Notes under the pieces: model-generated | Told to the model about the DNA's origin: nothing | What the model saw: the letters and a program-made list of their open reading frames with translations, nothing else | The model's database searches: none | Source of the DNA: a virus | IMG/VR virus record: IMGVR_UViG_3300045988_027176 | Coordinates: 1-41,559 of that record | Reading direction: 5' to 3' (one strand) | Length of the DNA stretch: 41,559 bases | In this document: positions 1-41,559 of the stretch, in pieces | Layout: every line of letters begins with the position of its first letter | How positions within the stretch are numbered: the first letter of the stretch is position 1 | Position numbers and translations under genes: made by a program

Positions 1-55
1 CAGAAAACGGCGACATCTTTTTTGAACTTGTTTGGCTATAAAGAACCTTAACACC
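1..55. repeat. 55-bp terminal direct repeat, copy 1 (identical to 41505-41559)
   Basis: Read directly: cagaaaacggcgacatcttttttgaacttgtttggctataaagaaccttaacacc is present at both ends. It includes the last 41 nt and stop codon of the integrase ORF. Confidence 0.95.
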
Positions 56-79: not shown

Positions 80-102
80 AGGGGATGCACTATGCATCCC
101 CT
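80..102. terminator. Perfect 10-bp stem hairpin at the convergent ends of int and the ArdC-like gene
   Basis: aggggatgca-cta-tgcatcccct. The loop is the stop codon of the 90-938 ORF. There is no long U run on either side, so terminator function is only suggested. Confidence 0.4.
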
Positions 103-938
103 AAAATATAGTTTACTGCTTTTTCAGCTTTGCCAGCGGCAGAGATTATCATAGTTGGATCATTTTTTAGAACTTGCATCCAACCTTGAAGATATGCAGC
201 GCTATTTCGGAAAGAAGCTCTTGTTTCTATCCCTACATAGGCAACAAGGTTTGCCGCGCCGAGCTCCGCTACAAGCTCTTCTTTGCTGTAGTCATCGCTT
301 CCAAAAGCCGCTGCGCCAGAACCGCAAGCAAAGCGATCAAGCCTTGTTTTATGCCCGGTAGAATGTGCCATCTCGTGAAAGGCTGTCGAGTAATACAATG
401 CATCATTAGGGAATTGTTCAATCTTCGGAATGACGATTGCATCACGTGACGGGCTGTAAAACGCTTCGTCGGACAGATTATCGCGGATCAGCTTTACGCC
501 CTCGCGCTCAACATAAGCGGTAATGATGTCCTCGGCCTCCGATACCGGGTTTGCGTGCTTTTGGAGTTCGGGAGGATATTTGATTTTGATATTCTCGCAA
601 TCTTCGACATTGAACACGGTGTAGTATCTAAGCATCGGTACGATCTTTTCTGTTGGCTCTCCGCTCTCGTCCGTCAAGCTCGTTGTCACCTGTTTCCAGA
701 AAACAACCGGGCGGCCTTTAGAGCCTTTCTTCAAATGGCCCTTTTCAGCTTTGATCTGATTCATCGTCACCCACTCGCCCGCGCAACCAAGAATTAACTG
801 GTTAAGCAGGCTGTACGGCTTGCCGGTGGTGTGGGAAACAGCACCAACGCCCGTCCAAGGCTTGTCCCACGGGATGACGCCCTTTTCCATTTCCTCAATC
901 AGGCGGTCAGTTATCAACGCGCAAATTTTCTTGTTCAT
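90..938 (-). CDS. ardC: ArdC-like antirestriction protein (N-terminal ssDNA-binding DUF1738-type domain plus C-terminal zincin metalloprotease)
   Basis: 282 aa. The N-terminus (LIEEMEKGVIPWDKPW...) is typical of the ArdC N domain. There is a C-terminal HExxH motif (FHEMAHSTGH). ATGA overlap with the upstream small ORF. Confidence 0.7.
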   Translation of the reverse strand: MNKKICALITDRLIEEMEKGVIPWDKPWTGVGAVSHTTGKPYSLLNQLILGCAGEWVTMNQIKAEKGHLKKGSKGRPVVFWKQVTTSLTDESGEPTEKIVPMLRYYTVFNVEDCENIKIKYPPELQKHANPVSEAEDIITAYVEREGVKLIRDNLSDEAFYSPSRDAIVIPKIEQFPNDALYYSTAFHEMAHSTGHKTRLDRFACGSGAAAFGSDDYSKEELVAELGAANLVAYVGIETRASFRNSAAYLQGWMQVLKNDPTMIISAAGKAEKAVNYILGDA

Positions 939-1084
939 ACAATCGCCTCCTCCGCCGTCTGGTAGATGAATTCATACTCGGCATTGGAAATGCTGTCGTC
1001 ATTCGCGGCAAAAGACACAATATACCGAAGCGTGTCAATGCTGTCAGCCGCTGCGATCAAATTGATGTACTCGCTTACGCACAT
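935..1084 (-). CDS. Hypothetical small protein (49 aa), translationally coupled to the ArdC-like gene
   Basis: My translation: MCVSEYINLIAAADSIDTLRYIVSFAANDDSISNAEYEFIYQTAEEAIV. RBS aaaggagaaaaaac lies before the ATG. Its stop overlaps the ardC ATG (ATGA). Too short for the ORF track. Confidence 0.5.
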   Translation of the reverse strand: MCVSEYINLIAAADSIDTLRYIVSFAANDDSISNAEYEFIYQTAEEAIV

Positions 1085-1124
1085 AGTTTTTTCTCCTTTA
1101 CATTTGCGCCTTGCCGTGTTAAGG

Positions 1125-1162
1125 TAGAAAAGGAAAGGGGCTTTGGCAAGGCTCTAAGCCCC
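1125..1162 (-). terminator. Terminator-like hairpin between the 38-aa ORF and the ArdC operon
   Basis: On the minus strand: GGGGCUU-12 nt-AAGCCCC followed by UUUCCUUUUCU. Confidence 0.4.
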
Positions 1163-1211
1163 ATCCTGTGGCTTTCGGTGAGCGGCTTTAGCTGGGGCGC
1201 TCACCGATTTT

Positions 1212-1328
1212 TTAATGCTTCTGCATGATACGCTTAACGCGCTCTCGCAGCTCTTCGAGCGAATCGCAAGTTTCGATCAGCTCAAGAATCGCTCTGAGCA
1301 ACGCTTCCGTGACGTTCACGTCAGGCAT
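1212..1328 (-). CDS. Hypothetical small protein (38 aa)
   Basis: My translation: MPDVNVTEALLRAILELIETCDSLEELRERVKRIMQKH. Strong RBS gaaaggaagtgagg. First ORF downstream of the promoter at 1378-1406. Confidence 0.5.
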   Translation of the reverse strand: MPDVNVTEALLRAILELIETCDSLEELRERVKRIMQKH

Positions 1329-1361
1329 GTCCTCACTTCCTTTCGTAAAAGGCTTTCGCCC

Positions 1362-1411
1362 TTGCCTTACAGTTGTAGTTATAAACTATATAGTTTAGAA
1401 TGTCAACTGTT
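1362..1411 (-). promoter_or_regulatory. Promoter/operator cassette copy 1 (-35 TTGACA 1401-1406, 17-nt spacer, -10 TATAAC 1378-1383)
   Basis: Minus strand reads aACAGTTGACAttctaaactatatagttTATAACtaCAACTGTaag. Inverted repeats ACAGTTG/CAACTGT bracket the promoter, and a perfect 14-bp palindrome AAACTATATAGTTT fills the spacer. 46 of 50 positions are identical to 27094-27143. AT-rich UP-like region upstream. Confidence 0.7.
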
Positions 1412-1486
1412 TAATTGAATTTTCTTGCAAAAATTTATAACATTTTCGACATGCTCAATGAAGCACGCGGTTGATTTTATAAAGCA

Positions 1487-1514
1487 AAGAGGAGGGCCTT
1501 TCAGCCCTCCTCTT
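1487..1514 (-). terminator. Rho-independent terminator after the RHH gene
   Basis: 11-bp perfect stem aagaggagggc/gccctcctctt. On the minus strand it is followed by UUGCUUUAUAAAAU. The stop codon lies in the loop. Confidence 0.6.
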
Positions 1515-1641
1515 TTAATGCCTTGATGATTATGTTTTCGATGTAATTTGTCAGTGTCCGGTTCTCCGCATCGGCGGCTTTTTGCAACTTTTCTTTCATC
1601 TCCGGTGTGAGGCGGAGATTGACGCGCTCTGTCTTTGCCAT
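1501..1641 (-). CDS. Ribbon-helix-helix (CopG/Arc-like) DNA-binding protein, 46 aa
   Basis: My translation: MAKTERVNLRLTPEMKEKLQKAADAENRTLTNYIENIIIKALKEEG. The strand-helix-helix pattern (RVNLRLTPE... then NYIENII) is classic RHH. Its start overlaps the upstream stop (TAATG). Confidence 0.7.
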   Translation of the reverse strand: MAKTERVNLRLTPEMKEKLQKAADAENRTLTNYIENIIIKALKEEG

Positions 1642-1973
1642 TATTTTGCCTCTGAACTGTCGAAGCAACCCTCGGTAGACCCGGCGCAGCCATAGGCTTT
1701 CCAGTCAATCGGGAGGTCTTCGTCAGCAATGCTCTGGTCGAGGTCTTCGCGATCCACGCGGAAGACCCAGATGTGCCGCTGCTTGCGCTCGCGCTCTGTG
1801 AGGTAGTGCCACTGCTCGCGGGCGTCGTCGTTCGCCTCTTCCAGAGTGCGGAAAGCCTTTTCAAATACGTCCGGGTGCCCGCCCGCGCCGTAGATCGGTT
1901 CATCCTGAACAAGGTAAACGTGGTCAAGCTCTGCCCAATCGTGGGCGTTCTCTTTCGTGAACTCGTTTTTCAT
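1641..1973 (-). CDS. Hypothetical acidic protein, 110 aa (start MKNEFTK)
   Basis: RBS aaaggaaaaacaacc before the ATG at 1973. By my count 27 D/E against 13 K/R. It has its own consensus promoter, and an RHH gene follows immediately. Confidence 0.6.
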   Translation of the reverse strand: MKNEFTKENAHDWAELDHVYLVQDEPIYGAGGHPDVFEKAFRTLEEANDDAREQWHYLTERERKQRHIWVFRVDREDLDQSIADEDLPIDWKAYGCAGSTEGCFDSSEAK

Positions 1974-2021
1974 GGTTGTTTTTCCTTTCTTCGGGCGTTC
2001 ATCTCTTGCCCTTATGGTTGC

Positions 2022-2050
2022 ATTGTAAACCAATGTACATACAGTGTCAA
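2022..2050 (-). promoter_or_regulatory. Consensus sigma-70-type promoter (TTGACA-17-TACAAT) for the acidic-protein/RHH operon
   Basis: Minus strand: TTGACActgtatgtacattggttTACAAT. The spacer contains the palindrome ATGTACAT. Confidence 0.65.
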
Positions 2051-18091: not shown

Positions 18092-18165
18092 TGGCAGCGC
18101 GAGTTGGGATTGAACCAACATCGACAGGATCAAAGCCTGTTGTGTTACCTTTGCACCATCGCGCT
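18092..18165 (-). tRNA. tRNA-Gln (anticodon UUG), 74 nt with encoded CCA
   Basis: Folded by hand. Acceptor AGCGCGA/TCGCGCT. Weak D arm GTG(C)/CAC. Anticodon stem ACAGG/CCTGT with loop CTTTGAT. Variable loop CGAT. T arm GTTGG-TTCAATC-CCAAC. Discriminator G, then CCA. Confidence 0.8.
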
Positions 18166-18515: not shown

Positions 18516-20271
18516 AGTATCTGTCATATAGTTTTTTCGCGCTCCTTTCTTCGATGGCCATAATTCTAAGTCTTGGGTTAATGAGCGTTGCGCCGAGCGA
18601 TTCTTGATAATGCTTAATCAAATCCGACTTGGCAGTAAAGTATACATATCCGTCAAAACCTTGTTTGAAGCTCTCCCGAACAGCCTCTGCAAACAAATGG
18701 CCGCCTACACCAGAATACTCCTTACTTAGAAATGCAGGGTTGTGCGGGTTGTTAAACGGAGCAGCTTCGACTATATCAATCTTTACGGCATAATTGTTTG
18801 GATCCGGCTTTAAGGCAATTAAACCCTGTATGCGGTTATCTCCATTCGCTTTAATTCCGCGAATTGTATACCCGTTCTTACGCGGAATCGTCCAGTCAAA
18901 CTCCCAGTCCTTAAAATCGCGTTTTGTTGGAATAACCTCAACGACGGTGGTGTTGACAAATTGTCCGTCATTCATTCTTTTAAGGCAAGGTGTAAGCTCG
19001 TCAACCTCGATTTTAATTATACCATTTTCAGGCTGTTTTGCAATATTTTTTGCAGCTTTCTGCGCTTCCCGTGCTTCTTTCGGCCCGAACTCCGCGATGT
19101 TCCCACGCTCGTATTGTGGCCGCAGTCCTGCCGCCTTACTGAAAGCCTCGTATTCCTCGTTTAGACGACGATACCGTACAGACTTGGTCGTATACTCCTC
19201 ATCGTCTCCGCGTCCTTTAGCAGCTATTAGCTCACGTTTAACTTTACGCAGCGATGCTTCAACCTGCCTCTGCTTTTGTGTCGCTTCGTAAAAGGTGTAT
19301 TGCTTGCCCTCAAACTCAAAAGGCGGCGGGTCGATGTTCTCCAATTCCTCATCGGTGTATGTCCGCTCGGAAACACCCTCGATCCAGATATGGTACATAT
19401 GGCGGCAGTTTGCGCCGCACAAGCCGTCCACCTCGTCAAGGCCGCAGACCTCATAGATGGACGGGTAAATATCGCCGGTACGTACGGAATAAACGCGCCC
19501 CTGCCATTTCTTGTGGCTCGCCCATGGCGTTTTGCCCTCTCCGTCACGCGCTCCGCGGTGCGCCGTAACCTCCCTGTATGGCGTGTCAAGCAACGTCGCC
19601 GTCTGCTCGGTGTACTGCCGGGAAAGCTGGGTAACGCCAGTCATAACGGCTCTGCGGGCAGCAACGTCAACGCGGTTATGCCAGCCGGATTCATAGTCAA
19701 CGTACTGCAAGCCGCTGTCCGTCAGCATCTTCGTTGCGTCACGGATCGCCACGTTATAGCTCTGCCCGCTCTCAACGCGCATCAAGGCATCGTCAAGCAC
19801 GCGCTGGTACATACGGCCTATATCATCGACCTTTACCGTGCCGTCCGGCGCTCGGTACGCAAAGCCCATGCTTCGGGTAATGTTCGTCAGCTCTCCGAGC
19901 GTCTGCATCTCAATGGCGTTGATTTCCTGCATGAACAGGTCGGCATTGAAGTTGTTTTCACCGAGAATGAGGTTGTCGTCGATCAGCGTATCAAAATACT
20001 GCTGATTGCGTTGAACGGCCTTGTTCCATACGGTGTCAAACTCGCTCTGTGTGAGCTTTAGGGTCTTTCGGATATACTCGTTGATTTTTTTGTAATCGTA
20101 TCCCCTCCGCTGCAAAGACCGTATATGCTCTATCGCCGTCTCCGTCATTTCCCCGGTCATGGCAACACGGGAGCATATGTCCTCAAGGATTTGCTCTTCT
20201 AAGCGCTGATATAGCCGCATAAGCGGCAGGGGCAGGGAGTACATGAACTCCGGCGTGATCGGGTATTTCAT
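18496..20271 (-). CDS. Head morphogenesis protein (Mu F / SPP1 gp7 family) fused to a C-terminal GNAT-like acetyltransferase domain
   Basis: 591 aa. MuF signature ...TAHRGARDG...HKKWQGRVYSV...GANCRHMYH. The C-terminal ~170 aa (IQGLIALKP...VKIDIVEAAP...YSGVGGHLFAEAVRESFKQGFDGYVYFTAKSDLIKHYQESLGA) have GNAT-like beta4-alpha3 and beta5-alpha4 patterns, including a G-x-G-G CoA-loop-like motif. Confidence 0.75.
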   Translation of the reverse strand: MKYPITPEFMYSLPLPLMRLYQRLEEQILEDICSRVAMTGEMTETAIEHIRSLQRRGYDYKKINEYIRKTLKLTQSEFDTVWNKAVQRNQQYFDTLIDDNLILGENNFNADLFMQEINAIEMQTLGELTNITRSMGFAYRAPDGTVKVDDIGRMYQRVLDDALMRVESGQSYNVAIRDATKMLTDSGLQYVDYESGWHNRVDVAARRAVMTGVTQLSRQYTEQTATLLDTPYREVTAHRGARDGEGKTPWASHKKWQGRVYSVRTGDIYPSIYEVCGLDEVDGLCGANCRHMYHIWIEGVSERTYTDEELENIDPPPFEFEGKQYTFYEATQKQRQVEASLRKVKRELIAAKGRGDDEEYTTKSVRYRRLNEEYEAFSKAAGLRPQYERGNIAEFGPKEAREAQKAAKNIAKQPENGIIKIEVDELTPCLKRMNDGQFVNTTVVEVIPTKRDFKDWEFDWTIPRKNGYTIRGIKANGDNRIQGLIALKPDPNNYAVKIDIVEAAPFNNPHNPAFLSKEYSGVGGHLFAEAVRESFKQGFDGYVYFTAKSDLIKHYQESLGATLINPRLRIMAIEERSAKKLYDRYYGGESS

Positions 20272-25961: not shown

Positions 25962-25987
25962 TTCAGTTCCTTCCTTTCCGCTTCCAA

Positions 25988-26017
25988 CAAAAAAGAGCCG
26001 GAATCGCTTCCAGCTCT
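25988..26017 (-). terminator. Strong rho-independent terminator immediately upstream of the ParB-like gene and late operon
   Basis: On the minus strand: AGAGCUGGAA-gcga-UUCCGGCUCU (10 bp, one G-U pair) followed by UUUUUUG. The RBS and ATG of the ParB-like gene follow within 27 nt. Confidence 0.75.
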
Positions 26018-26030
26018 TTCGAGTGTACCC

Positions 26031-26040
26031 ATTATAGCAC
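26031..26040 (-). promoter_or_regulatory. Extended -10 promoter-like element (TGcTATAAT) about 14 nt upstream of the terminator stem
   Basis: The minus strand reads gTGcTATAATgggtacactcgaa and then the terminator hairpin. There is no good -35. Confidence 0.35.
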
Positions 26041-26059
26041 TTGATTTTGGCTTTTTAGG

Positions 26060-26248
26060 CTAATCTTTCAACGTCGGCGTGAAACTTTCGCTTTTAAGCA
26101 TCCCCATGATCCTGCCCATTTCCGCAAGCCTCCCTGCGGAAAATTGTGTACCACCGCCATTTAATTTACAAGCTTCAATAAGCTCAAGTCGCCGCTCTTT
26201 GAAGAATTCATAAAGTCTGTCTGCGTCAATAGCTCTCATTAGTCCCAC
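26060..26248 (-). CDS. Hypothetical protein, 62 aa
   Basis: ORF with a GGGGTGGG RBS-like sequence. Overlaps the upstream gene. Confidence 0.5.
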   Translation of the reverse strand: MGLMRAIDADRLYEFFKERRLELIEACKLNGGGTQFSAGRLAEMGRIMGMLKSESFTPTLKD

Positions 26249-26487
26249 CCCATCATCTGAAAAATTTCGTCAAAATTAAAACATTTGCTTATGCCGGTAG
26301 TATCCTCCGTTTTCTGTAAAAGATGGCGGTCAATTTCTTTCTGCGCTTCAATGTGCTTTTCTCTCATAGTTTCAGAATAACCGTTGTGCTCATCCGTTAT
26401 CATGTACTCACAGCCACGGTACTCATAGAACAGATGAACGGCGTACCCGTTTTTGTCTCTGACCTTACCCTTGTATTTCGCTCTCAT
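26239..26487 (-). CDS. Hypothetical protein, 82 aa
   Basis: ATGA overlap with the upstream gene. RBS ggagatg. Confidence 0.5.
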   Translation of the reverse strand: MRAKYKGKVRDKNGYAVHLFYEYRGCEYMITDEHNGYSETMREKHIEAQKEIDRHLLQKTEDTTGISKCFNFDEIFQMMGWD

Positions 26488-26702
26488 TTCAGCATCTCCT
26501 TTCCAGCAAGATCAAACGCCATCTTGATTGCAGCGTCACGCGCTGCCGATCCTTTACCGTGTACGGTGTGTGTTCCTTTCCCGCGTTCTTCGACAAGAAA
26601 ATTGGCCTTTTCGCCAGTGTTCCATTGGTATATAGCAATGTTCGTTCCTACCAGCCAGAAATGATTCCCGTTGCGCTGCCACTGTTTTCCTCTAAAAGTC
26701 AT
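26484..26702 (-). CDS. Hypothetical protein, 72 aa (start MTFRGKQWQ)
   Basis: RBS gaaaggacaacggc before the ATG at 26702. The track start at 26765 is a TTG with no RBS. Confidence 0.45.
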   Translation of the reverse strand: MTFRGKQWQRNGNHFWLVGTNIAIYQWNTGEKANFLVEERGKGTHTVHGKGSAARDAAIKMAFDLAGKEMLK

Positions 26703-26751
26703 GCCGTTGTCCTTTCTGGGCGGTTTAGCCGCCGCCCTTCGGCTTTTTATC

Positions 26752-27060
26752 TCACGCGATTTCAAACCAATCGCAGAACTTCGTCATGTAGTGCTTTGCG
26801 ATGTGGTTTGTCTCTGCTGCCGCCCACTTCGTGGAGCGCTTTTCCATAATCGCCGTGTAGGTCTGAGCTTTAACACCGCTCTCAACCTTTTCGACCTTGC
26901 CGCTCTTTTCCATGATCCTGATGAGATACATTGTATCCCGGTCGTGAATCGCGTCGGCCTCAATAACAGCCTCGGCAATAGTCTTCGCGTTCAAAGCGCG
27001 ATACTCGGAAGTCATGGGCTTGTAGAATGCGCTGTAATCGATGTAAAGAATGTATTTCAT
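26752..27060 (-). CDS. Hypothetical protein, 102 aa
   Basis: RBS gaaaggaaattgaa. First gene behind promoter/operator cassette copy 2. Confidence 0.55.
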   Translation of the reverse strand: MKYILYIDYSAFYKPMTSEYRALNAKTIAEAVIEADAIHDRDTMYLIRIMEKSGKVEKVESGVKAQTYTAIMEKRSTKWAAAETNHIAKHYMTKFCDWFEIA

Positions 27061-27093: not shown

Positions 27094-27143
27094 TTGCCTT
27101 ACAGTCGTAGTTATAAACTATTTGGTTTAGAATGTCAACTGTT
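27094..27143 (-). promoter_or_regulatory. Promoter/operator cassette copy 2 (-35 TTGACA 27133-27138, 17-nt spacer, -10 TATAAC 27110-27115)
   Basis: 46 of 50 positions are identical to 1362-1411. The differences fall in one flanking half-site (CGACTGT versus CAACTGT) and in the central palindrome. Confidence 0.7.
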
Positions 27144-27180
27144 ATTTTGAACTTTTTGGATTATTTTTGAAAAGTTTTAT

Positions 27181-27209
27181 TTGACAAGCAAAAGTATATA
27201 GTTTACAAT
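27181..27209 (+). promoter_or_regulatory. Plus-strand promoter TTGACA-17-TACAAT for the HTH gene
   Basis: ttgacaagcaaaagtatatagtttacaat. The spacer contains tatatagttta, which is shared with the palindrome of cassette copy 1. Confidence 0.65.
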
Positions 27210-27230: not shown

Positions 27231-27440
27231 ATGACTGCTAAGCAATTAGTTGATATGGCGCTGGCTTACGCCGGGATGAGCAAATCAGAGCTTGCCCGCC
27301 GCCTAAACTGGTCTCCGCAACTGTTAAGCAAGCGCCTAAATACCGGAAAGTTTTCCGTTGAAGAATGGGGCATTATTGCAAAAGCCATTGGCGCAGAACC
27401 ACATATCGGCTTTATTTTCCCGGACGGAAAAGAAATATAA
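27231..27440 (+). CDS. Small XRE-family HTH regulator, 69 aa
   Basis: SKSELARRLNWSPQLLSKRLNTGKFSVEEW is a classic XRE HTH. RBS gaaaggggtga. It is the only plus-strand gene inside the minus-strand lytic block. Confidence 0.8.
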   Translation: MTAKQLVDMALAYAGMSKSELARRLNWSPQLLSKRLNTGKFSVEEWGIIAKAIGAEPHIGFIFPDGKEI

Positions 27441-27444
27441 AGCA

Positions 27445-27476
27445 AAGGGGTAGTCATTCGACTGCCCCTTTTTTTG
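27445..27476. terminator. Bidirectional terminator between convergent genes
   Basis: 11-bp stem aaggggtagtc/gactgcccctt, followed by ttttttt on the plus strand and by a U-rich tract on the minus strand. The stop of the 27454-27873 gene lies inside the stem-loop. Confidence 0.7.
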
Positions 27477-27873
27477 TAAGTCCAAAGTTCTCTGCTGTTC
27501 TTTCGATGAATTTATTATGCCAGTTCTTAGCGGTTCCGTAGGAAACGAACAGGGCCATAGCTGCCCCATGCAAAGTATGTGTGCGCTTAAAAAAAACCAT
27601 TTCGATGAGCTTTACGCGATCCGCGCCATTAGGATACCGCATGGTGTCCCGTATGGTCTTTTCGACAGCTAAATACTCTTTCATATCATCGAAAGGCAGC
27701 TCGCGCAAGGCTACGCTTTCAGCGGCTCGGTTTACGTCCGTCCCTCGTCCTGTTGCGCCGTATGCAGGAACAACAGACTGCTCCCGTATATTCCGCAAAT
27801 CCTCACAATGCATCGGGTACGCCCGGATGATCGCTTTCACGAATCCCCACCATTTGTATCTTGGTTTGCTCAT
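27454..27873 (-). CDS. Putative late-gene transcriptional regulator (RinA/ArpU or sigma region-4-like)
   Basis: 139 aa. The C-terminal part (LHGAAMALFVSYGTAKNWHNKFIERTA) looks like a region-4-type HTH. Its position between the early and late blocks fits. Confidence 0.4.
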   Translation of the reverse strand: MSKPRYKWWGFVKAIIRAYPMHCEDLRNIREQSVVPAYGATGRGTDVNRAAESVALRELPFDDMKEYLAVEKTIRDTMRYPNGADRVKLIEMVFFKRTHTLHGAAMALFVSYGTAKNWHNKFIERTAENFGLTKKGAVE

Positions 27874-31905: not shown

Positions 31906-32336
31906 CCGAGCCTCCGCTTGGCGTAGAGTGCCATGAGTAAAGATTCCGCCATTCCGTCATGCTCCTTGCGGCAGCCCGGCGGAATCAAATTCACGCCGGG
32001 GAAAAGCCGCTTGCAGACCTCTATGGACGTGTTCTTGTCCGCCGTGACGGAAAATTCCTTCTTCCACTTCTGAGGGCGGACGAGCTCATACGGTATCTCG
32101 TATGCTTCCAGCATCCCTTGCAGCCACCCGAAGCCCTCGCCGAAGTGGAACATAGAGGTCACTCCCTGCCCCGGCATGGCGCTGACGTGCTCTAAGCAGC
32201 ACACCGCCTTTTCCCCGCGAAGATCGGATAGGCCGCAGCGGTAGGTGTCTCGGTCGTACCGGAACGTCTGGACTTCCTCACCCTGCAGAATGGCGAGGCC
32301 GCCGTTCTTGCCGGGGTCTATGCCGATGTAGATCAT
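31902..32336 (-). CDS. RuvC-like Holliday junction resolvase
   Basis: MIYIGIDPGKNGGLAIL is the catalytic-Asp opening motif of phage and Gram-positive RuvC-like resolvases. 144 aa. Confidence 0.7.
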   Translation of the reverse strand: MIYIGIDPGKNGGLAILQGEEVQTFRYDRDTYRCGLSDLRGEKAVCCLEHVSAMPGQGVTSMFHFGEGFGWLQGMLEAYEIPYELVRPQKWKKEFSVTADKNTSIEVCKRLFPGVNLIPPGCRKEHDGMAESLLMALYAKRRLG

Positions 32337-33424
32337 TCTTCCGCCTCTACGATCTCGCCGTTGCGGAGAGTGTAAAATACATCCGCCTTGATGATCTCAC
32401 CATCCACCTGGTACGACTTAACGCAGATGCAAGGGTATCCATCGCCGTCCCATTCGCCGTACTCGGCGAGAGTACACCATGTACCAACGGGAGCCTTGAT
32501 CTTCCCGCGCTTGCCGATAGCCGCCGCGACGCCGTGGACATTCTCGATCACAATTCTTGCGTCATCGCCGGAACTGCCGATCTGCGCGTATCTGCCGGAA
32601 CTGCCGATCTGCGCGTATCTGCCGGAACTGCCGATCTTCGCGTCATCGCCGGAACTGCCGATCTTCGCGTATCTGCCGGAACTGCCGATCTTCGCGTCAT
32701 CGCCGGAACTGCCGATCTGCGCGTATCTGCCGGAACTGCCGATCTTCGCGTCATCGCCGGAACTGCCGATCTGCGCGTATCTGCCGGAACTGCCGATCTG
32801 CGCGGCATCGCCGGAACTGCCGATCTGCGCGGCATCGCCGGAACTGCCGATCTGCGCGGAATCGCCGGAACTGCCGATCTTCGCGTCATCGCCGGAACTG
32901 CCGATCTGCGCGGCATAGCCGGAACTGCCGATCTTCGCGGCATCGCCGGAACTGCCGATCTTCGCGTATCTGCCGGAACTGCCGATCTGCGCGTATCTGC
33001 CGGAACTGCCGATCTGCGCGGCATCGCCGGAACTGCCGATCTGCGCGGCATCGGAAACGTCAACGTCCTCCGGCTTCGGCATTTTCTTAATCGTTTTCTC
33101 AAAAAGAAAATCAACGCACGCCTGAATAAAGCCGGAAAAGCCAAGCTTTGCGCCGATTTTAATCGTGCTGGTTGCGAATTTCTTGTCGTCATCCGTTACC
33201 GGAGGATAGATGGCTTCCACGGTTGTAAAGTCGCTGAACTGTCCGTCCGGTCGGACAAGCGGGTAATGGTCTAAAACGTCGAACGGATTAACACAGTAGT
33301 GTGTTACGCCCGGAACGCAGATGCCGTGACCGGATTTTTTGTAAACCGTGTTCTCTTCGTATTTGTGTCCACGGCAGATCAAGCCGGGTTCATAGGCTTT
33401 AAAGCCGTGCATATTATCGCTCAT
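32333..33424 (-). CDS. DUF7666-like protein with 18 tandem nonapeptide repeats
   Basis: The N-terminus FKAYEPGLICRGHKYEENTVY...GVTHYCVNPFDVLDHYP resembles, from memory, the DUF7666 family. The centre is 18 units of x-x-A-(Q/K)-I-G-S-S-G. Confidence 0.6.
   Translation of the reverse strand: MSDNMHGFKAYEPGLICRGHKYEENTVYKKSGHGICVPGVTHYCVNPFDVLDHYPLVRPDGQFSDFTTVEAIYPPVTDDDKKFATSTIKIGAKLGFSGFIQACVDFLFEKTIKKMPKPEDVDVSDAAQIGSSGDAAQIGSSGRYAQIGSSGRYAKIGSSGDAAKIGSSGYAAQIGSSGDDAKIGSSGDSAQIGSSGDAAQIGSSGDAAQIGSSGRYAQIGSSGDDAKIGSSGRYAQIGSSGDDAKIGSSGRYAKIGSSGDDAKIGSSGRYAQIGSSGRYAQIGSSGDDARIVIENVHGVAAAIGKRGKIKAPVGTWCTLAEYGEWDGDGYPCICVKSYQVDGEIIKADVFYTLRNGEIVEAEE
32567..33052. repeat. 27-bp tandem repeat x18 (coding)
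   Basis: The unit gccggaactgccgatct(g/t)cgcg plus a 5-nt variable tail (tatct, tcatc, gcatc, gaatc, gcata) repeats 18 times with an exact 27-nt period (32567 + 17 x 27 = 33026). Confidence 0.95.
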
Positions 33425-34092
33425 GGTCTTTCCTCCTCGTTTGGTTTATTTTTAAGATTTGCCAGAAGCCTTTCGAGACGGTCTATGTCATCTCCATGCG
33501 GGGCGGAAACTGTTTTCTTTGGCGCTTCCGGCTCGTCCTTGAGCGGGAAAACACCCTGCCAGCCTCGCTGGATGCTCTGGTTGAGTATGGCGATCTTCTT
33601 CTCGTCATCGCCGGGTGCGAGCTTTTCCAGTTCGGAAAGCGTGAGAGCAAGGGCGCGGTCGGTAAGCGGTTTGCGCATCTTTTTCCGCATTTCGGCAAAA
33701 TCGTTCAAAGCCGCATCCAGCGCGGAAGCGCCTTTATGTTTTTCCTCGTCAGAGGTAAAACATCTGTCTTTGTCTTTGTCTTTGTCCTTGTCCTTGTCCT
33801 TGTCCTTGGGGGGCGTTCGGGGGCGTTCGGGGGCGTTCGGGGGCGAATGCCCCCCACCCTTTTCTCCGTTCTCGCGGTTTCGCGCGCATTTGGCGTTGTA
33901 TTTCTCAATGTCCCTATCGATCTGCGACCTCATGCCGGGGAAGACAAAGCGTTCATTACCGCGGAGTTCCGGAGCTGCGCCGGTCGCGCTGTATTCTAGC
34001 AGCGCCCTGAACAGTCTCCCGCACTCCGCGTCATTCAGCGCTTCCATGGTGTCGAGGTAGCTGTGATAGGCATTGAAGCTCTCTAGTGCCAT
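33421..34092 (-). CDS. Replisome-organizer-like replication protein (DUF6291-like N-terminus, phage conserved C-terminal domain)
   Basis: The N-terminus F.AYHSYLDTMEALNDAECGRLFRALLEYSATG and the C-terminus ...F.EMRKKMRKPLTDRALALTLSELEKL......ILNQSIQRGWQGVF match patterns I associate with phage replication organizer proteins. The central linker contains (KD)7. Confidence 0.5.
   Translation of the reverse strand: MALESFNAYHSYLDTMEALNDAECGRLFRALLEYSATGAAPELRGNERFVFPGMRSQIDRDIEKYNAKCARNRENGEKGGGHSPPNAPERPRTPPKDKDKDKDKDKDKDRCFTSDEEKHKGASALDAALNDFAEMRKKMRKPLTDRALALTLSELEKLAPGDDEKKIAILNQSIQRGWQGVFPLKDEPEAPKKTVSAPHGDDIDRLERLLANLKNKPNEEERP
33766..33854. repeat. Microsatellite and iteron block inside the replication gene
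   Basis: (gtcttt)3(gtcctt)4 at 33766-33807. Then gggggcgttc x3 at 33809-33838 with an exact 10-bp period. Then the palindrome gggggc-gaat-gccccc at 33839-33854. Confidence 0.9.
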
Positions 34093-37642: not shown

Positions 37643-37677
37643 TTTTTCACCCCCATCAAATTATTTTGATTTGATAG

Positions 37678-37706
37678 TTGCAAAAGTTAACACCGTCTGC
37701 TATAAT
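37678..37706 (+). promoter_or_regulatory. Rightward promoter TTGCAA-17-TATAAT (candidate repressor-maintenance promoter)
   Basis: ttgcaaaagttaacaccgtctgctataat. The inverted repeat atcaaa-ttat-tttgat and the direct repeat ttgat ttgat lie just upstream (37655-37675). Confidence 0.6.
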
Positions 37707-37760
37707 GAAATTGCACTTACAAAACAGCAGAAACGGGGCGCGAAAGCAACTGCGCTTTAT

Positions 37761-37839
37761 TAACTTCGCTAACCATGATTGCATTATAACCCATGACGTT
37801 ATTGAAGTAAACATCTTTTTGCTAACTTCGGTAACTTCG
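37761..37839. promoter_or_regulatory. Repeated TAACTTCG(C/G)TAAC operator-like sites flanking the leftward promoter
   Basis: taacttcgctaac at 37761-37773 and taacttcggtaac at 37823-37835. The second overlaps a third taacttcg at 37832-37839. Confidence 0.55.
37783..37811 (-). promoter_or_regulatory. Leftward promoter TTTACT-17-TATAAT (candidate early lytic promoter)
   Basis: The minus strand reads gTTTACTtcaataacgtcatgggtTATAATgc. Confidence 0.5.
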
Positions 37840-37869
37840 GCATTCTAAACAAAAAGGCAGGGGTGTTTT

Positions 37870-38190
37870 ATGGCGTTTTACCAACAGTTTATTAAGTTAT
37901 GTAATACCACCGGAATATCGCCATCCCGCGCAGCATTAAACGCCGGACTTTCTAAAACATCTGTAAATGGATGGAAAAGAGGGCAAACGCCAACCGACAA
38001 GAACATTGCGAAACTCGCAGAGGTGTTTAATGTTCCTGTTTCCTACTTTGACGAAAAAGAAGAAAAGCTCCCTGTCGATACCGACAAAGAGCTTTCCCCT
38101 AAGTATTCTGATTGGCAAATTTTAGCCGCCTACGAAAAGGCGGACGACAATGTTAAGGAAGCAATCCTGCTTCTTCTAAAATTAAGGTGA
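37870..38190 (+). CDS. CI-like XRE-family repressor
   Basis: 106 aa. ISPSRAALNAGLSKTSVNGWKRGQTPTDKNIAKLAEVFNVPVSYF is an XRE HTH with a C-terminal extension. Divergent from the Cro-like gene. Confidence 0.8.
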   Translation: MAFYQQFIKLCNTTGISPSRAALNAGLSKTSVNGWKRGQTPTDKNIAKLAEVFNVPVSYFDEKEEKLPVDTDKELSPKYSDWQILAAYEKADDNVKEAILLLLKLR

Positions 38191-39689: not shown

Positions 39690-40250
39690 GTGTCCGCGCT
39701 CACAGACCTACAACCTTACTTAGACGAGTATCCAGCCAAACTTCGCAAAGCGAAAAATGCCAGCGGCTTCACCCTGCAAGAGTTGTCAGACCTTTCAGGC
39801 GTTCCTTATAACAACGTATGCGACACAAATGCAGGGCGGGTCAAGCACCCGCTCCTTTTTTATGCCGCTGCCACTTGCAAGGTATTGAATCTATCGCTGA
39901 ATGAGCTTGTCGGTCTGGATGAACAGCCGGACACACAGCATGTCCATGATCTGGAATTAGAGAACGTGCGGTTATCCGGCGAAGTAAAGCATCTGCAAGA
40001 AATGAACGCAGGGCTGAGAAAGCAGGGGGAAACCCACACAAGGACAATTTATATGCTTATAGGCGTATGCAGTATTCTTTTGTGCGCCGTTGTATGGTAC
40101 GTCATATTTGACATCAAGGTAGAGACCGCCGGTATTTTCCGCTCGGCTGGGACAAGCATTTTTGCGGGCGTCCTCGCCCTGATACTGAACGCCTCCGTCG
40201 CAACCATCATTTACGCCTTCAAAAGCATTTACAAGGGGAAAAAGAAATGA
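39690..40250 (+). CDS. Membrane-anchored XRE-family HTH protein
   Basis: I place the start at GTG 39690 (RBS ggagatggag). HTH FTLQELSDLSGVPYNNVCDTNAG, a coiled-coil-like segment, and two C-terminal TM helices (IYMLIGVCSILLCAVVWYVIF and IFAGVLALILNASVATIIYAF). ATGA overlap with the integrase start. Confidence 0.6.
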   Translation: MSALTDLQPYLDEYPAKLRKAKNASGFTLQELSDLSGVPYNNVCDTNAGRVKHPLLFYAAATCKVLNLSLNELVGLDEQPDTQHVHDLELENVRLSGEVKHLQEMNAGLRKQGETHTRTIYMLIGVCSILLCAVVWYVIFDIKVETAGIFRSAGTSIFAGVLALILNASVATIIYAFKSIYKGKKK

Positions 40251-41545
40251 GAGTTGCACTTTATGTCCGCGTCTCCACGGAAGAACAAGCCGTTCACGGC
40301 CTTTCCGTCGATGACCAGAAGGACAGCCTGAAAAGATGGGCGGAGGAAAACAAGCACAAGGTCGTTGATTATTACGTCGATGCCGGGGTAAGCGGCAGGA
40401 AAAGCGTGTCAAAGCGCCCTGAATTGCAGCGGCTTCTGTCCGACGTGGAAGCGGGGAAAATCGATCTCGTAGCGTTCACAAAGCTCGACCGGTGGTTCCG
40501 AAACATCGGGGAATTTTATAAGGCGCAGGAAGTCCTCGACGCGCACGGCGTTGTCTGGCAAGCGACATACGAGGATTATGAGACCGCCACAGCCGCCGGA
40601 CGGTTAAAGGTCAATATAATGCTGTCCGTCGCGCAGGACGAGGCAGACAGAACGTCAGAGCGTGTTAAACGGATCATGCAGCACAAGCGGGAGCTTGGCC
40701 TTTGCCCCGCGGGTAAAACGCCCATCGGGTTAAAGGCCGTCGAGAGCCGCCTTTGCATCGATGAGGAAACGGCGCACATTGCTAGGCGAATGTTTGAAGA
40801 TTACATCGCAACGGGAAGCGTTAACCACGTCAAAAAGATGCTCGTTTCCGAATTTGGAATAATGCGAGCGAATCATCATATAAAAGGCGCATTGAGCAAC
40901 GAGAGATATATCGGCCTTAACAACGGAATAAAAGTCTGCGACGCGCTGATCCCGCCGGAGGATTTTGCCCTTGTACAACGGATGCTGACGGCAAGAAGCA
41001 TTCGCAACAACGGATCAAAGCATACTTGGCTTTTCTCCGGCCTTGTCTGGTGCGCCGAATGCGGCCATCGTCTTGTGACGCATTCAACACGGCAACGTGG
41101 GACAGACTACTTCTATTACCGCTGCAAAAACTATGAAATTGGCATCTGCCGCCACAAAAAGAGAATCAACGAGGCGACGCTTGAAAAATATCTGCTTGCC
41201 AAGCTGCCAATCGAGGTACAGGCGCACAATGCAAAGCTCAAAGCAGGAAAAACAAAGCCGCCGGTTGATACGGCGGCGATCAAGCGGAAAATGGACAAAC
41301 TGACAGACCTTTACCTCGCTGATCTCATAAGCCGCGAGAAATACGAAATAGAATACACAGCATTAAAAGAAAAACTGAACGTACCGCCAGAGCCGAAGCC
41401 TATCAACGAAGAACTTGTCATGTCTCTATTGGACGCATATGACAAACTTCCGCCACGTGGAAAAAAGGAAGTGTGGAATCGCTTCATTCGCCGGATTGTA
41501 GTTTCAGAAAACGGCGACATCTTTTTTGAACTTGTTTGGCTATAA
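40247..41545 (+). CDS. int: Large serine recombinase (integrase)
   Basis: 432 aa. The N-terminal resolvase domain opens MRVALYVRVSTEEQ (catalytic Ser). Then a recombinase domain, a zinc ribbon CAECGH...YYRCKNYEIGICRH, and a C-terminal coiled coil. Confidence 0.93.
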   Translation: MRVALYVRVSTEEQAVHGLSVDDQKDSLKRWAEENKHKVVDYYVDAGVSGRKSVSKRPELQRLLSDVEAGKIDLVAFTKLDRWFRNIGEFYKAQEVLDAHGVVWQATYEDYETATAAGRLKVNIMLSVAQDEADRTSERVKRIMQHKRELGLCPAGKTPIGLKAVESRLCIDEETAHIARRMFEDYIATGSVNHVKKMLVSEFGIMRANHHIKGALSNERYIGLNNGIKVCDALIPPEDFALVQRMLTARSIRNNGSKHTWLFSGLVWCAECGHRLVTHSTRQRGTDYFYYRCKNYEIGICRHKKRINEATLEKYLLAKLPIEVQAHNAKLKAGKTKPPVDTAAIKRKMDKLTDLYLADLISREKYEIEYTALKEKLNVPPEPKPINEELVMSLLDAYDKLPPRGKKEVWNRFIRRIVVSENGDIFFELVWL

Positions 41546-41559
41546 AGAACCTTAACACC
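41505..41559. repeat. 55-bp terminal direct repeat, copy 2
   Basis: Identical to bases 1-55. Confidence 0.95.

What the first reader, a model, noticed from the sequence alone, without database searches (positions are those of the whole stretch)
1362..1411. A 50-bp promoter/operator cassette is present twice, 26 kb apart, defining a small regulon that includes the ArdC-like gene
1362-1411 and 27094-27143 are identical at 46 of 50 positions. Both encode a minus-strand TTGACA-17-TATAAC promoter. The conservation extends beyond the hexamers: inverted half-sites ACAGTTG / CAACTGT bracket the promoter, and the spacer of copy 1 is a perfect 14-bp palindrome, AAACTATATAGTTT.

Conservation of non-hexamer positions implies a shared DNA-binding regulator rather than just a strong promoter. 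One copy drives 38-aa and 49-aa ORFs followed by ArdC. The other drives four small unknown proteins (26060-27060). Co-regulation with an antirestriction gene makes those small proteins candidates for early anti-defence factors.
Basis: seen in the sequence. Interest (0 to 1): 0.65.

Follow-up and report, generated by a model that had tools for sequence, protein, structure and literature searches.

The report
Duplicated phage promoter-operator with its repressor
A gut-bacterial phage carries two near-identical copies of a strong promoter with a built-in repressor binding site, probably both switched off by one small phage protein, so that an anti-restriction gene and a swappable set of tiny unknown genes are expressed together; this is a new example of a known control logic.

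Summary
None of 100 shuffles reproduced it.

Both copies read TTGACA-17-TATAAC on the minus strand. A third promoter, P3 (27181-27209, + strand), drives the 69-aa HTH gene.

I retrieved 63 relatives through the HTH protein alone. In 54 of 55 distinct upstream regions the same divergent module appears:
- the HTH gene with its own promoter;
- exactly 42 nt between the two -35 hexamers (50 of 54);
- TTGACA-N3-TAAAC-N6-GTTTA-TAnAAT, then a leader and cargo genes.

The conserved operator candidate is the 16-bp inverted repeat TAAAC-N6-GTTTA in the promoter spacer. The outer ACAGTTG/CAACTGT repeat is specific to this clade.

In this clade the ancestral module looks split by duplication of its ~85-bp promoter. 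P2 kept the HTH gene and drives a hypervariable set of small genes. P1 kept the canonical leader and 38-aa gene, followed by ArdC.

Best reading: an autoregulated Xre-type repressor controls two or three promoters, as Aca and ArdK regulons do. Nothing here is experimentally shown. It is a new member of a known kind.

The parts
1362..1446 (-). P1: 'orphan' copy of the cargo promoter-operator. It has an AT-rich upstream region, -35 TTGACA at 1406..1401, -10 TATAAC at 1383..1378, and a conserved TGTAAGG start region at 1372..1366.
   Evidence: (D2). Present in all 13 close relatives retrieved through ArdC.
1382..1397 (.). Operator candidate O1: TAAAC-TATATA-GTTTA, a 16-bp inverted repeat inside the -35/-10 spacer of P1.
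   Evidence: only P1 and P2 match exactly in the window. Conservation profile.
27094..27178 (-). P2: copy of the cargo promoter-operator next to the HTH gene. -35 TTGACA at 27138..27133, -10 TATAAC at 27115..27110.
   Evidence: Conserved in 17 close and 3 distant HTH relatives.
27114..27129 (.). Operator candidate O2: TAAAC-TATTTG-GTTTA as read on the + strand (minus strand: TAAAC-CAAATA-GTTTA).
27181..27209 (+). P3: promoter of the HTH gene, TTGACA-17-TACAAT. It carries a degenerate operator (AAAAG-TATATA-GTTTA, 27190-27205) in which only the GTTTA half is conserved.
   Evidence: 42 nt separate the two -35 hexamers in 50 of 54 loci.
27231..27440 (+). 69-aa Xre-type HTH protein, the proposed autoregulated repressor of P1, P2 and P3. 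It is followed by a terminator at 27444-27471.
   Evidence: Pfam HTH_3 at E = 2.9e-4, below the gathering cut-off. PHROG 'transcriptional repressor' families. AF2 model with pLDDT 94.6 and four helices. Best fold matches are XRE-family proteins at TM 0.65. At least 156 unnamed homologue clusters. Terminator.
1212..1328 (-). 38-aa helical protein (p38). In many other lineages this is the canonical first gene behind the cassette.
   Evidence: Homologues lie directly behind the HTH-adjacent cassette in other lineages. No family match.
1348..1363 (-). Small hairpin near the 5' end of the P1 transcript (AAGGGC-GAAA-GCCUUU).
   Evidence: Five-pair consensus hairpin, three pairs with compensatory changes, across 12 leaders.
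1085..1211 (-). Structured spacer between p38 and p49/ArdC: two hairpins (the second followed by a U-rich tract) and an anti-SD:SD pairing.
   Evidence: Fold z-score -4.35. Same architecture with compensatory changes in 5-6 lineages. No Rfam family.
935..1084 (-). 49-aa ORF whose stop overlaps the ArdC start (ATGA).
   Evidence: Conserved together with ArdC in 12 relatives of the clade.
90..938 (-). ArdC-like protein (ArdcN domain plus MPTase-PolyVal zincin domain).
   Evidence: both domains above the Pfam cut-offs. (phrog_7245, anti-restriction protein).
26060..27060 (-). P2 cargo: four tightly packed small ORFs (26752-27060, 102 aa; 26484-26765, 93 aa; 26239-26487, 82 aa; 26060-26248, 62 aa).
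   Evidence: Only phrog_37083 (function unknown) matched. This gene set differs among relatives whose HTH is 94-97% identical.
25985..26020 (-). Intrinsic terminator (13-bp stem plus U6) that closes the P2 unit, just before the ParB-like gene.

Best explanation
The two cassettes are copies of one promoter-operator unit. That unit belongs to a conserved divergent module of gut Clostridia (Oscillospiraceae-type) phages.

**The module**
- A 69-aa Xre-type HTH gene with its own promoter.
- 42 nt further on, a near-consensus SigA-type promoter whose -35/-10 spacer contains the inverted repeat TAAAC-N6-GTTTA.
- A leader and variable cargo genes behind that promoter.

**Proposed mechanism (inferred, not shown)**
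- A dimer of the HTH protein sits on TAAAC-N6-GTTTA between the -35 and -10 elements and excludes RNA polymerase from P1 and P2.
- It represses its own promoter P3 more weakly, because only one half-site is kept there.
- When the DNA enters a cell that lacks the protein, P1 and P2 fire at once. They are shut down as the repressor accumulates, giving a transient burst of ArdC and the small proteins. In a lysogen they stay low.

**Origin of the two copies**
- In this clade the ancestral single module was split by duplication of about 85 bp of promoter.
- P2 kept the HTH gene and acquired exchangeable small genes.
- P1 kept the canonical leader and 38-aa gene, followed by p49-ArdC. It is regulated in trans from 26 kb away (16 kb the other way round the circle).
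For: **Shown in the sequence**
- 47 of 50 identity, with 0 expected by chance.
- TTGACA-17-TATAAC on the minus strand, with the similarity spanning about -75 to +12, which is the extent of a promoter.

**Comparative evidence**
- 63 loci were fetched through the HTH protein only. In 54 of 55 distinct upstream regions the cargo promoter carries TTGACA, TAAAC, GTTTA and TAnAAT at high information content. N3 and the centre of N6 are free.
- The distance between the two -35 hexamers is 42 nt in 50 of 54 loci.
- The recognition helix is almost invariant, and so is the GTTTA half-site.
- The HTH promoter keeps GTTTA but has a degenerate second half-site.
- Within the clade, nucleotide diversity in the operator centre is 0.40, against 0.056 for the remaining sites taken together, though a few upstream sites are equally variable.

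**Evidence about the two copies**
- P1 and P2 share clade-specific states (TATAAC, CTACAACTGTAAG, ACAGTTG) that are absent from other lineages, so they are paralogous copies.
- P1 carries the canonical leader and p38, which elsewhere sit beside the HTH gene.
- Nine relatives carry both copies on one contig.

**Other support**
- The window has only one HTH69 gene.
- The CI/Cro switch region uses different repeats, TAACTTCG.
- The HTH fold is XRE-like.
- Cargo includes ArdC here, and Amidoligase_2 plus an AIG2-like protein in relatives.
Against: - There is no experimental datum: no transcription start, no binding, no expression timing.
- TATAAC lacks the conserved T at -7, so promoter strength in this clade is uncertain.
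- GTTTA abuts the -10 element, and GTTTAnAAT is over-represented in the window's promoter-like sites generally (6 found, 1.2 expected). Part of the conservation could therefore reflect polymerase contacts rather than a repressor.
- The exact motif TTGACA-N3-TAAAC-N6-GTTTATAAT also occurs at 31 unique sites in unrelated low-GC viral contigs that have no HTH69 homologue within 400 nt. The motif alone does not imply this regulator.
- A structured spacer with a terminator-like hairpin lies between p38 and p49-ArdC, and a promoter-like site lies inside p49. ArdC may therefore not be driven only, or at all, by P1.
- Apart from ArdC itself (phrog_7245), no protein in either unit matches a known anti-defence family.
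Confidence: 0.65

Rival explanations
1. The two copies are simply a duplicated strong constitutive promoter. Their similarity outside the hexamers reflects recent common ancestry and general promoter constraints (UP-like AT tract, extended -10 region). No dedicated regulator is involved.
For: - P1 and P2 are clade-specific paralogues that share even neutral-looking states.
- GTTTAnAAT recurs at other promoter-like sites in the window.
- The same spacer motif occurs in unrelated phages without the HTH.
Against: - TAAAC at -26..-22 is not a known polymerase contact, yet it is conserved across lineages whose HTH is only 58-75% identical, while the adjacent N3 and N6 centre vary freely.
- The motif is an inverted repeat.
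- The promoter is tied to the HTH gene at a fixed 42-nt spacing in 50 of 54 loci.
Confidence: 0.13
2. The inverted repeat is an operator, but for another protein. Candidates are the 46-aa RHH protein encoded just upstream of P1, the CI-like 106-aa repressor, p38, or a host factor. In this reading the HTH69 protein has a different target.
For: - An Arc/TacA-like RHH gene ends 95 nt upstream of P1.
- RHH regulators of anti-defence operons are known (PMC13551039).
- p38 is the most conserved cargo gene.
Against: - The RHH gene and its partner are not part of the module in other lineages, whereas the HTH gene always is.
- The CI/Cro region uses unrelated TAACTTCG repeats.
- p38 is absent from P2 units and from several lineages that keep the operator.
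Confidence: 0.1
3. The quasi-palindrome is a bidirectional or face-to-face promoter. In this clade the + strand reads TTGTAG-17-TAGAAT. Copy 2 would then add a second promoter for the HTH gene, and copy 1 would produce a ~100-nt RNA ending at the 1487-1515 terminator.
For: - The + strand hexamers are at 1373-1378 and 1396-1401.
- TAnnnT is kept on the + strand in all relatives.
Against: - TAnnnT on the + strand follows automatically from the conserved TGTCAA and GTTTA at fixed spacing.
- The + strand -35 varies (TTGTAG, TCGTAG, TAGTAG) and is absent in other lineages.
Confidence: 0.06
4. The cassette is mainly a DNA-level element. It would serve as a conserved boundary sequence for homologous recombination that swaps cargo modules, or as a cruciform or site-specific recombination site, with transcription secondary.
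For: - Cargo behind P2 differs among near-identical relatives, while the promoter and the downstream ParB-like gene are conserved.
- The unit is a 42-bp quasi-palindrome.
Against: - The element has all the parts of a promoter in the right geometry, followed by a conserved leader and ribosome-binding site.
- The outer palindrome arms are not conserved outside the clade.
- The serine integrase lies next to ArdC's 3' end, not next to a cassette.
- Acting as a recombination linker is compatible with the best explanation and does not compete with it.
Confidence: 0.06

Closest known systems
Aca (anti-CRISPR-associated) repressors and their multi-operon control (Aca1/Aca2; Aca11/13; Aca14; PMC6765145, PMC9410906, PMC13551039)
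   Same: - A small DNA-binding protein with an inverted-repeat operator inside a strong promoter.
- Autoregulation.
- The same motif repeated in front of a second operon of small, mostly unannotated, fast-changing genes.
- Structured 5' leader RNAs in some families.
   Different: - The HTH gene is transcribed divergently instead of lying downstream in the regulated operon.
- No cargo protein is a known Acr.
- The second operator is 26 kb away rather than in the neighbouring operon.
- Sequence membership in a named Aca family could not be tested here, and Aca2's DUF1870 domain is not hit.
ArdK-controlled establishment regulon of IncW plasmid R388 (PMC3937220; ArdC function in PMC7213743)
   Same: - One autoregulated repressor acts on several dispersed promoters, including the ardC promoter.
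- Negative feedback gives a transcriptional overshoot when the DNA enters a new cell.
   Different: - That system is a conjugative plasmid of Proteobacteria, not a Clostridia phage.
- No PDB chain reached even E = 0.1 in a sequence search with HTH69, so no similarity to a solved regulator such as ArdK is apparent; ArdK was not compared directly.
- The operator sequences are unrelated.
- The overshoot is only inferred for this phage.
Restriction-modification controller (C) proteins such as C.Esp1396I
   Same: - A ~70-80-aa Xre-type HTH with fold similarity (TM 0.63-0.65).
- A palindromic operator in its own promoter region.
- A role in timing gene expression after entry into a naive cell.
   Different: - No restriction or modification genes are adjacent.
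- C proteins act first as activators and then as repressors at tandem C-boxes.
- Sequence identity is only 14%.
Dispersed operators of phage immunity repressors (lambda OL/OR; P1 C1 operators)
   Same: One phage repressor recognises related operators at promoters far apart in the genome.
   Different: This phage has a separate CI/Cro-type switch with different repeats (37650-37870). The HTH69 module is an accessory circuit, not the lysis-lysogeny switch.

Membership tests
SigA/sigma-70-type promoter | -35 hexamer close to TTGACA | tested here: met
   TTGACA is exact in P1, P2 and P3. It is invariant in 40 unique relatives.
SigA/sigma-70-type promoter | 16-18 bp spacer | tested here: met
   17 nt in P1, P2 and P3. 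17 nt in nearly all relatives, 18 in one.
SigA/sigma-70-type promoter | -10 hexamer TATAAT with A at position 2 and T at position 6 | tested here: inconclusive
   P1 and P2 have TATAAC, with C at position 6, so the scan tool did not list them. This state is fixed in the clade. Other lineages have TATAAT or TACAAT at the same place.
SigA/sigma-70-type promoter | Mapped transcription start 6-8 nt downstream of the -10 element | not testable with these tools
   No transcript data. The conserved (T/C)GTAAGG at the expected start is only suggestive.
Xre/Cro-CI-type HTH regulator | HTH_3-type domain by sequence | tested here: inconclusive
   PF01381 at E = 2.9e-4 and 21.2 bits, below the 23-bit cut-off. 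PHROG repressor families at 1e-7 to 1e-5.
Xre/Cro-CI-type HTH regulator | Helical-bundle fold of XRE proteins | tested here: met
   AF2 model with pLDDT 94.6 and four helices. Top Foldseek hits are an XRE-family protein (3f6w), Stl, ClgR, C.Esp1396I and DdrO at TM 0.63-0.67, although E-values are only about 0.01.
Xre/Cro-CI-type HTH regulator | Dimer binding to an inverted-repeat operator | not testable with these tools
   Inferred from the TAAAC-N6-GTTTA symmetry and its linkage to the gene.
Aca (anti-CRISPR-associated) regulators | Encoded in or next to an operon containing a validated anti-CRISPR gene | tested here: not met
   No cargo protein matches an annotated family. The HTH gene is divergent, not co-transcribed. 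No Acr-specific library was available.
Aca (anti-CRISPR-associated) regulators | Inverted repeat within the promoter of the regulated operon, repeated at further operons | tested here: met
   TAAAC-N6-GTTTA lies in the spacer of P1 and P2, with a half-site in P3.
Aca (anti-CRISPR-associated) regulators | Sequence membership in a named Aca family | not testable with these tools
   No Aca profile library was available. Pfam DUF1870 (Aca2) was not hit.
ArdK-type plasmid establishment regulon | Regulator homologous to ArdK | not tested
   ArdK was not compared directly, and I did not confirm that its chain is in the PDB copy searched. A phmmer search of HTH69 against all PDB chains returned only DnaB helicases and one XRE-family protein, all at E of 0.18 or higher, so no similarity to any solved regulator is apparent.
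ArdC anti-restriction proteins | N-terminal ArdcN ssDNA-binding domain plus C-terminal zincin metallopeptidase domain | tested here: met
   PF08401 at 86 bits (cut-off 22.6) and PF18818 at 119 bits (cut-off 27.5). phrog_7245 at 2.5e-70.
R-M controller (C) proteins | Located with, and controlling, a restriction endonuclease or methyltransferase pair | tested here: not met
   The neighbours are small unknown ORFs, a RinA-like gene and a ParB-like gene.

The most novel reading that the evidence does not exclude
The HTH69 module is a portable 'expression dock' of Oscillospiraceae phages. Its fixed parts are a repressor, an operator-promoter, the p38 gene and a structured leader. The leader has three elements: two hairpins, a possible pseudoknot between the GCCUUACC loop and GUAAGGC, and an anti-SD pairing.

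Behind these fixed parts, anti-defence or establishment genes are exchanged freely. Cargo would then be controlled at two levels: transcription by HTH69, and translation by a new RNA motif, possibly together with p38. The window would show how such a dock can be split to build a dispersed regulon.
Probability: 0.25. Interest if true: 0.7.

Novelty: new member of a known kind. Interest (0 to 1): 0.5.

Why it matters
If the model holds, it gives a sequence signature (HTH69 family plus TTGACA-N3-TAAAC-N6-GTTTA) that marks where gut Clostridia phages keep genes they need immediately on entry. These phages and their hosts are hard to culture, and no anti-defence genes are known for them.

The genes behind the signature would be a ranked candidate list for anti-restriction and other counter-defence functions. 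That list includes ArdC, amidoligase with an AIG2-like protein, and dozens of unannotated small proteins that differ between near-identical phages.

The window also shows a simple route by which a local autoregulated operon becomes a dispersed regulon: duplication of 85 bp of promoter. The underlying control logic, however, is already known from Aca and ArdK systems.

Tried and rejected
- **Megablast of the first 25 kb against GenBank phages:** no match. tblastn of the HTH against phages and plasmids found only 28-49% relatives in different contexts, such as Flavonifractor phage Chenonceau and Enterococcus plasmids. These were not informative for the module.
I replaced it with stricter patterns and, above all, with gene-anchored retrieval.
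- **RNA hairpin reading of the cassette** (conserved stems, variable loop, some G-U-compatible changes in the outer arms): rejected. The outer arms are clade-specific, the element lies upstream of its own start site, and a strong terminator precedes P1.
- **Plus-strand promoter:** its TAnnnT conservation is a by-product of TGTCAA and GTTTA at fixed spacing.
- **CI-like repressor as regulator:** its switch region has unrelated repeats.
- **RinA-like p139 as activator:** such activators serve promoters without a -35 element, and the module sits elsewhere in other lineages.
- **Sequence search of HTH69 against PDB:** nothing significant.
- **Rfam:** only a tRNA in the window, and no family for the leader.
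- **A second cassette copy in other lineages:** none found on any contig with the exact canonical pattern.
- **Inverted match 1282-1305 / 18584-18607:** it lies inside two coding regions and looks accidental.

Full report
**Observation.** They are identical at 47 of 50 positions, not 46. A search with copy 1 at up to three mismatches finds only these two sites, and none of 100 dinucleotide-preserving shuffles gives any. Ungapped similarity continues on the + side to 85 nt at 79% (D2).

On the minus strand both copies read TTGACA, 17 nt, TATAAC. Copy 1 contains the perfect palindrome AAACTATATAGTTT, and the whole unit is a 42-bp quasi-palindrome (I10). A third promoter with a related spacer, TTGACA-AGCAAAAGTATATAGTT-TACAAT, lies on the + strand at 27181-27209, directly in front of the 69-aa HTH gene.

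**Context.** The window is a circular contig: bases 1-55 repeat at 41505-41559. It is 52% GC and has the layout of a temperate siphovirus:
- Lysogeny genes on the + strand: a serine integrase (40247-41545) and a CI-like HTH (37870-38190).
- A long minus-strand early block running from about 37640 to 27454 and ending with a weak RinA-like gene.
- The lone + strand HTH gene with its own terminator.
- A minus-strand block with four small ORFs, then a ParB-like gene, terminase, portal and the remaining late genes.
- A self-contained two-gene unit at 2050-1500: its own TTGACA-17-TACAAT promoter, a 110-aa unknown protein, a 46-aa RHH protein and a bidirectional terminator.
- P1, the 38-aa ORF, the 49-aa ORF and ArdC. 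ArdC carries ArdcN and MPTase-PolyVal domains, both above the Pfam cut-offs, and converges on the integrase.

The P2 unit ends at a 13-bp-stem, U6 terminator at about 25985-26020.

**Relatives.** No GenBank phage is similar at the DNA level. IMG/VR holds a clade of close relatives. All 13 loci found through ArdC (98-99% identical) carry P1-p38-p49-ArdC. All 17 loci found through the HTH (94-97% identical) carry P3 and P2. Nine contigs carry both.

To avoid selecting on the motif itself, I then retrieved 63 loci through an alignment of HTH proteins only, which gave 55 distinct upstream regions. In 54 of them the same architecture is present, down to 58% HTH identity. In order it comprises:
- the HTH start and its promoter;
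- an AT-rich stretch;
- TTGACA-N3-TAAAC-N6-GTTTA-TAnAAT;
- (T/C)GTAAGG at the expected start site;
- a short leader hairpin and a strong ribosome-binding site;
- a small helical protein, often a p38 homologue.

The information profile shows TTGACA, TAAAC, (A/T)T-(G/A)-GTTTA and the -10 element as conserved. N3 and the first three or four bases of N6 are free. The two -35 hexamers are 42 nt apart in 50 of 54 loci, which puts the operator centres 76 bp apart.

The HTH promoter keeps the GTTTA half but has a degenerate second half. The predicted recognition helix, WSPQLLNKRLNTGKF, is almost invariant, in step with the invariant half-site.

Hosts named in genome records are Agathobaculum, Anaerotruncus, Acutalibacteraceae, Oscillospiraceae and other Clostridia.

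The 14-bp palindrome is the symmetric form of the real conserved unit, the 16-bp inverted repeat TAAAC-N6-GTTTA. Its centre varies even among near-identical genomes: diversity is 0.40 there against 0.056 for the remaining sites taken together. The outer ACAGTTG/CAACTGT arms and the C at the end of TATAAC are restricted to this clade. Other lineages have AAAGGGTTGACA and TATAAT.

**Origin of the two copies.** P1 and P2 share the clade-specific states, so they are copies of each other. P2 nevertheless has the canonical left neighbour (P3 and the HTH gene), and P1 has the canonical right neighbour (leader hairpin and p38). Upstream of P1 only a decayed remnant of the P3 -35 element remains: TCGACA, aligned with the TTGACA of P3.

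The simplest history is that one divergent module was split by duplication of about 85 bp of promoter. No other lineage shows two exact copies on one contig. The window has a single HTH69 gene.

**Cargo.** Behind P2 the small genes differ among relatives whose HTH is 94-97% identical: at least six different first genes occur. None has an annotated family. In more distant lineages the cassette drives Amidoligase_2 plus an AIG2-like/GGACT protein, or other unknown proteins. ArdC and such enzymes are typical of genes needed on entry into a new host. That statement rests on established knowledge of ArdC (PMC7213743) and on inference.

**Mechanism.** The promoters have a perfect -35 element, optimal spacing and a near-consensus -10 element, and the symmetric site lies between the hexamers. 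A dimeric repressor bound there would exclude RNA polymerase.

The adjacent, always-linked, autoregulated small Xre-type protein is the obvious candidate. Its AF2 model has pLDDT 94.6, and its best fold matches are XRE-family proteins, Stl, ClgR and C.Esp1396I at TM about 0.65. I put this reading at 0.65. Binding, repression, start sites and timing are all inferred.

The expected behaviour is a burst of expression on entry followed by shut-off. This was measured for the ArdK-controlled ardC promoter of plasmid R388 (PMC3937220) and has been proposed for Aca-controlled anti-CRISPR operons (PMC6765145, PMC13551039).

**Caveats.**
- TATAAC lacks T at -7.
- GTTTA touches the -10 element, and GTTTAnAAT is common at promoter-like sites in this phage.
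- The exact canonical motif also occurs at 31 unique sites in unrelated low-GC viral contigs that have no HTH69 homologue nearby.
- Between p38 and p49-ArdC lies a 125-nt spacer that folds far better than shuffles (z = -4.35). It keeps the same three-part structure, with compensatory changes, in five or six lineages. Its second hairpin is followed by a U-rich tract, and the ribosome-binding site of the next gene is paired. How much P1 transcription and translation reaches ArdC is therefore open. A promoter-like site inside p49 (CTGACA-17-TATATT) is an alternative source.

**Comparison and novelty.** In logic, the system matches Aca repressors that control more than one anti-defence operon, and the ArdK establishment regulon that includes ardC. 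It does not meet the membership tests that could be run. No validated Acr is present, the gene is divergent rather than co-transcribed, and no PDB chain matched HTH69 by sequence; ArdK itself was not compared directly. The HTH family is unnamed, with at least 156 clusters annotated only as hypothetical.

I rate it a new member of a known kind, with moderate interest. The by-products that could raise the interest are the conserved leader RNA and the idea of a portable cargo dock.

Noticed in passing
window 1085-1211 (minus strand); same element in L158, L205, L241, L177, L009: A conserved ~125-nt structured spacer lies between the 38-aa gene and the next gene. It has a hairpin right after the stop codon with three compensatory pairs, and a GC-rich hairpin with conserved loop GCCUU(A/G)CC. 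A third pairing sequesters the next gene's Shine-Dalgarno sequence. The loop is complementary to a downstream GUAAGGC (GGCAAGGC in the window, a matched change), so a pseudoknot is possible. No Rfam family matches.
   Followed up: partly
window 25985-26044 (minus strand): An extended -10 element (TGCTATAAT) with no -35 element is followed within ~15 nt by a 13-bp-stem, U6 terminator, just before the ParB-like gene that heads the packaging genes. It could be a late promoter with a leader terminator. A weak RinA-like gene (27454-27873) lies upstream.
   Followed up: partly
window 1500-2050 (minus strand): A self-contained two-gene unit with its own TTGACA-17-TACAAT promoter (2050..2022). It encodes a 110-aa protein with no family and a 46-aa RHH protein (Arc/TacA-like), and ends at a bidirectional terminator (1487-1515). 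Its promoter spacer contains the palindrome ATGTACAT and a GGTTTA next to the -10 element.
   Followed up: partly
window 1386-1388 and 27118-27120, and the same positions in about 30 relatives: The three bases at the centre of the operator differ in almost every otherwise near-identical relative (TAT, TGA, CTA, CAA, CGA, TAA, TTA). Diversity there is 0.40, against 0.056 for the remaining sites taken together. This may be relaxed constraint, a mutational hot spot at a palindrome centre, or tuning of repression.
   Followed up: partly
window 32451-33152 (inside ORF 32333-33424, minus strand): A long tandem array of 27-nt units (nine-residue protein repeats) inside a 363-aa ORF of the early region.
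   Followed up: no
window 33806-33845: Four tandem copies of a G-rich 10-mer (TTCGGGGGCG) inside ORF 33421-34092.
   Followed up: no
window 18092-18165 (minus strand): A tRNA-Gln (anticodon TTG) gene sits among the structural genes.
   Followed up: no
window 37650-37870: The CI/Cro-type intergenic region carries three copies of TAACTTCG, probably the operators of the main immunity switch. They are unrelated to the cassette.
   Followed up: no
window 1-55 and 41505-41559: An exact 55-bp terminal overlap shows that the window is a circularly closed contig of 41,504 bp. The two cassettes are therefore also only about 15.8 kb apart the other way round.
   Followed up: yes
L251-L319 (viral contigs, 30-46% GC): The exact motif TTGACA-N3-TAAAC-N6-GTTTATAAT recurs in several unrelated phage families without an HTH69 homologue within 400 nt, for example CCTCTTGACAAGTTAAACTTCGTAGTTTATAAT. 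These sites may have their own regulators or may be chance matches among consensus promoters.
   Followed up: partly
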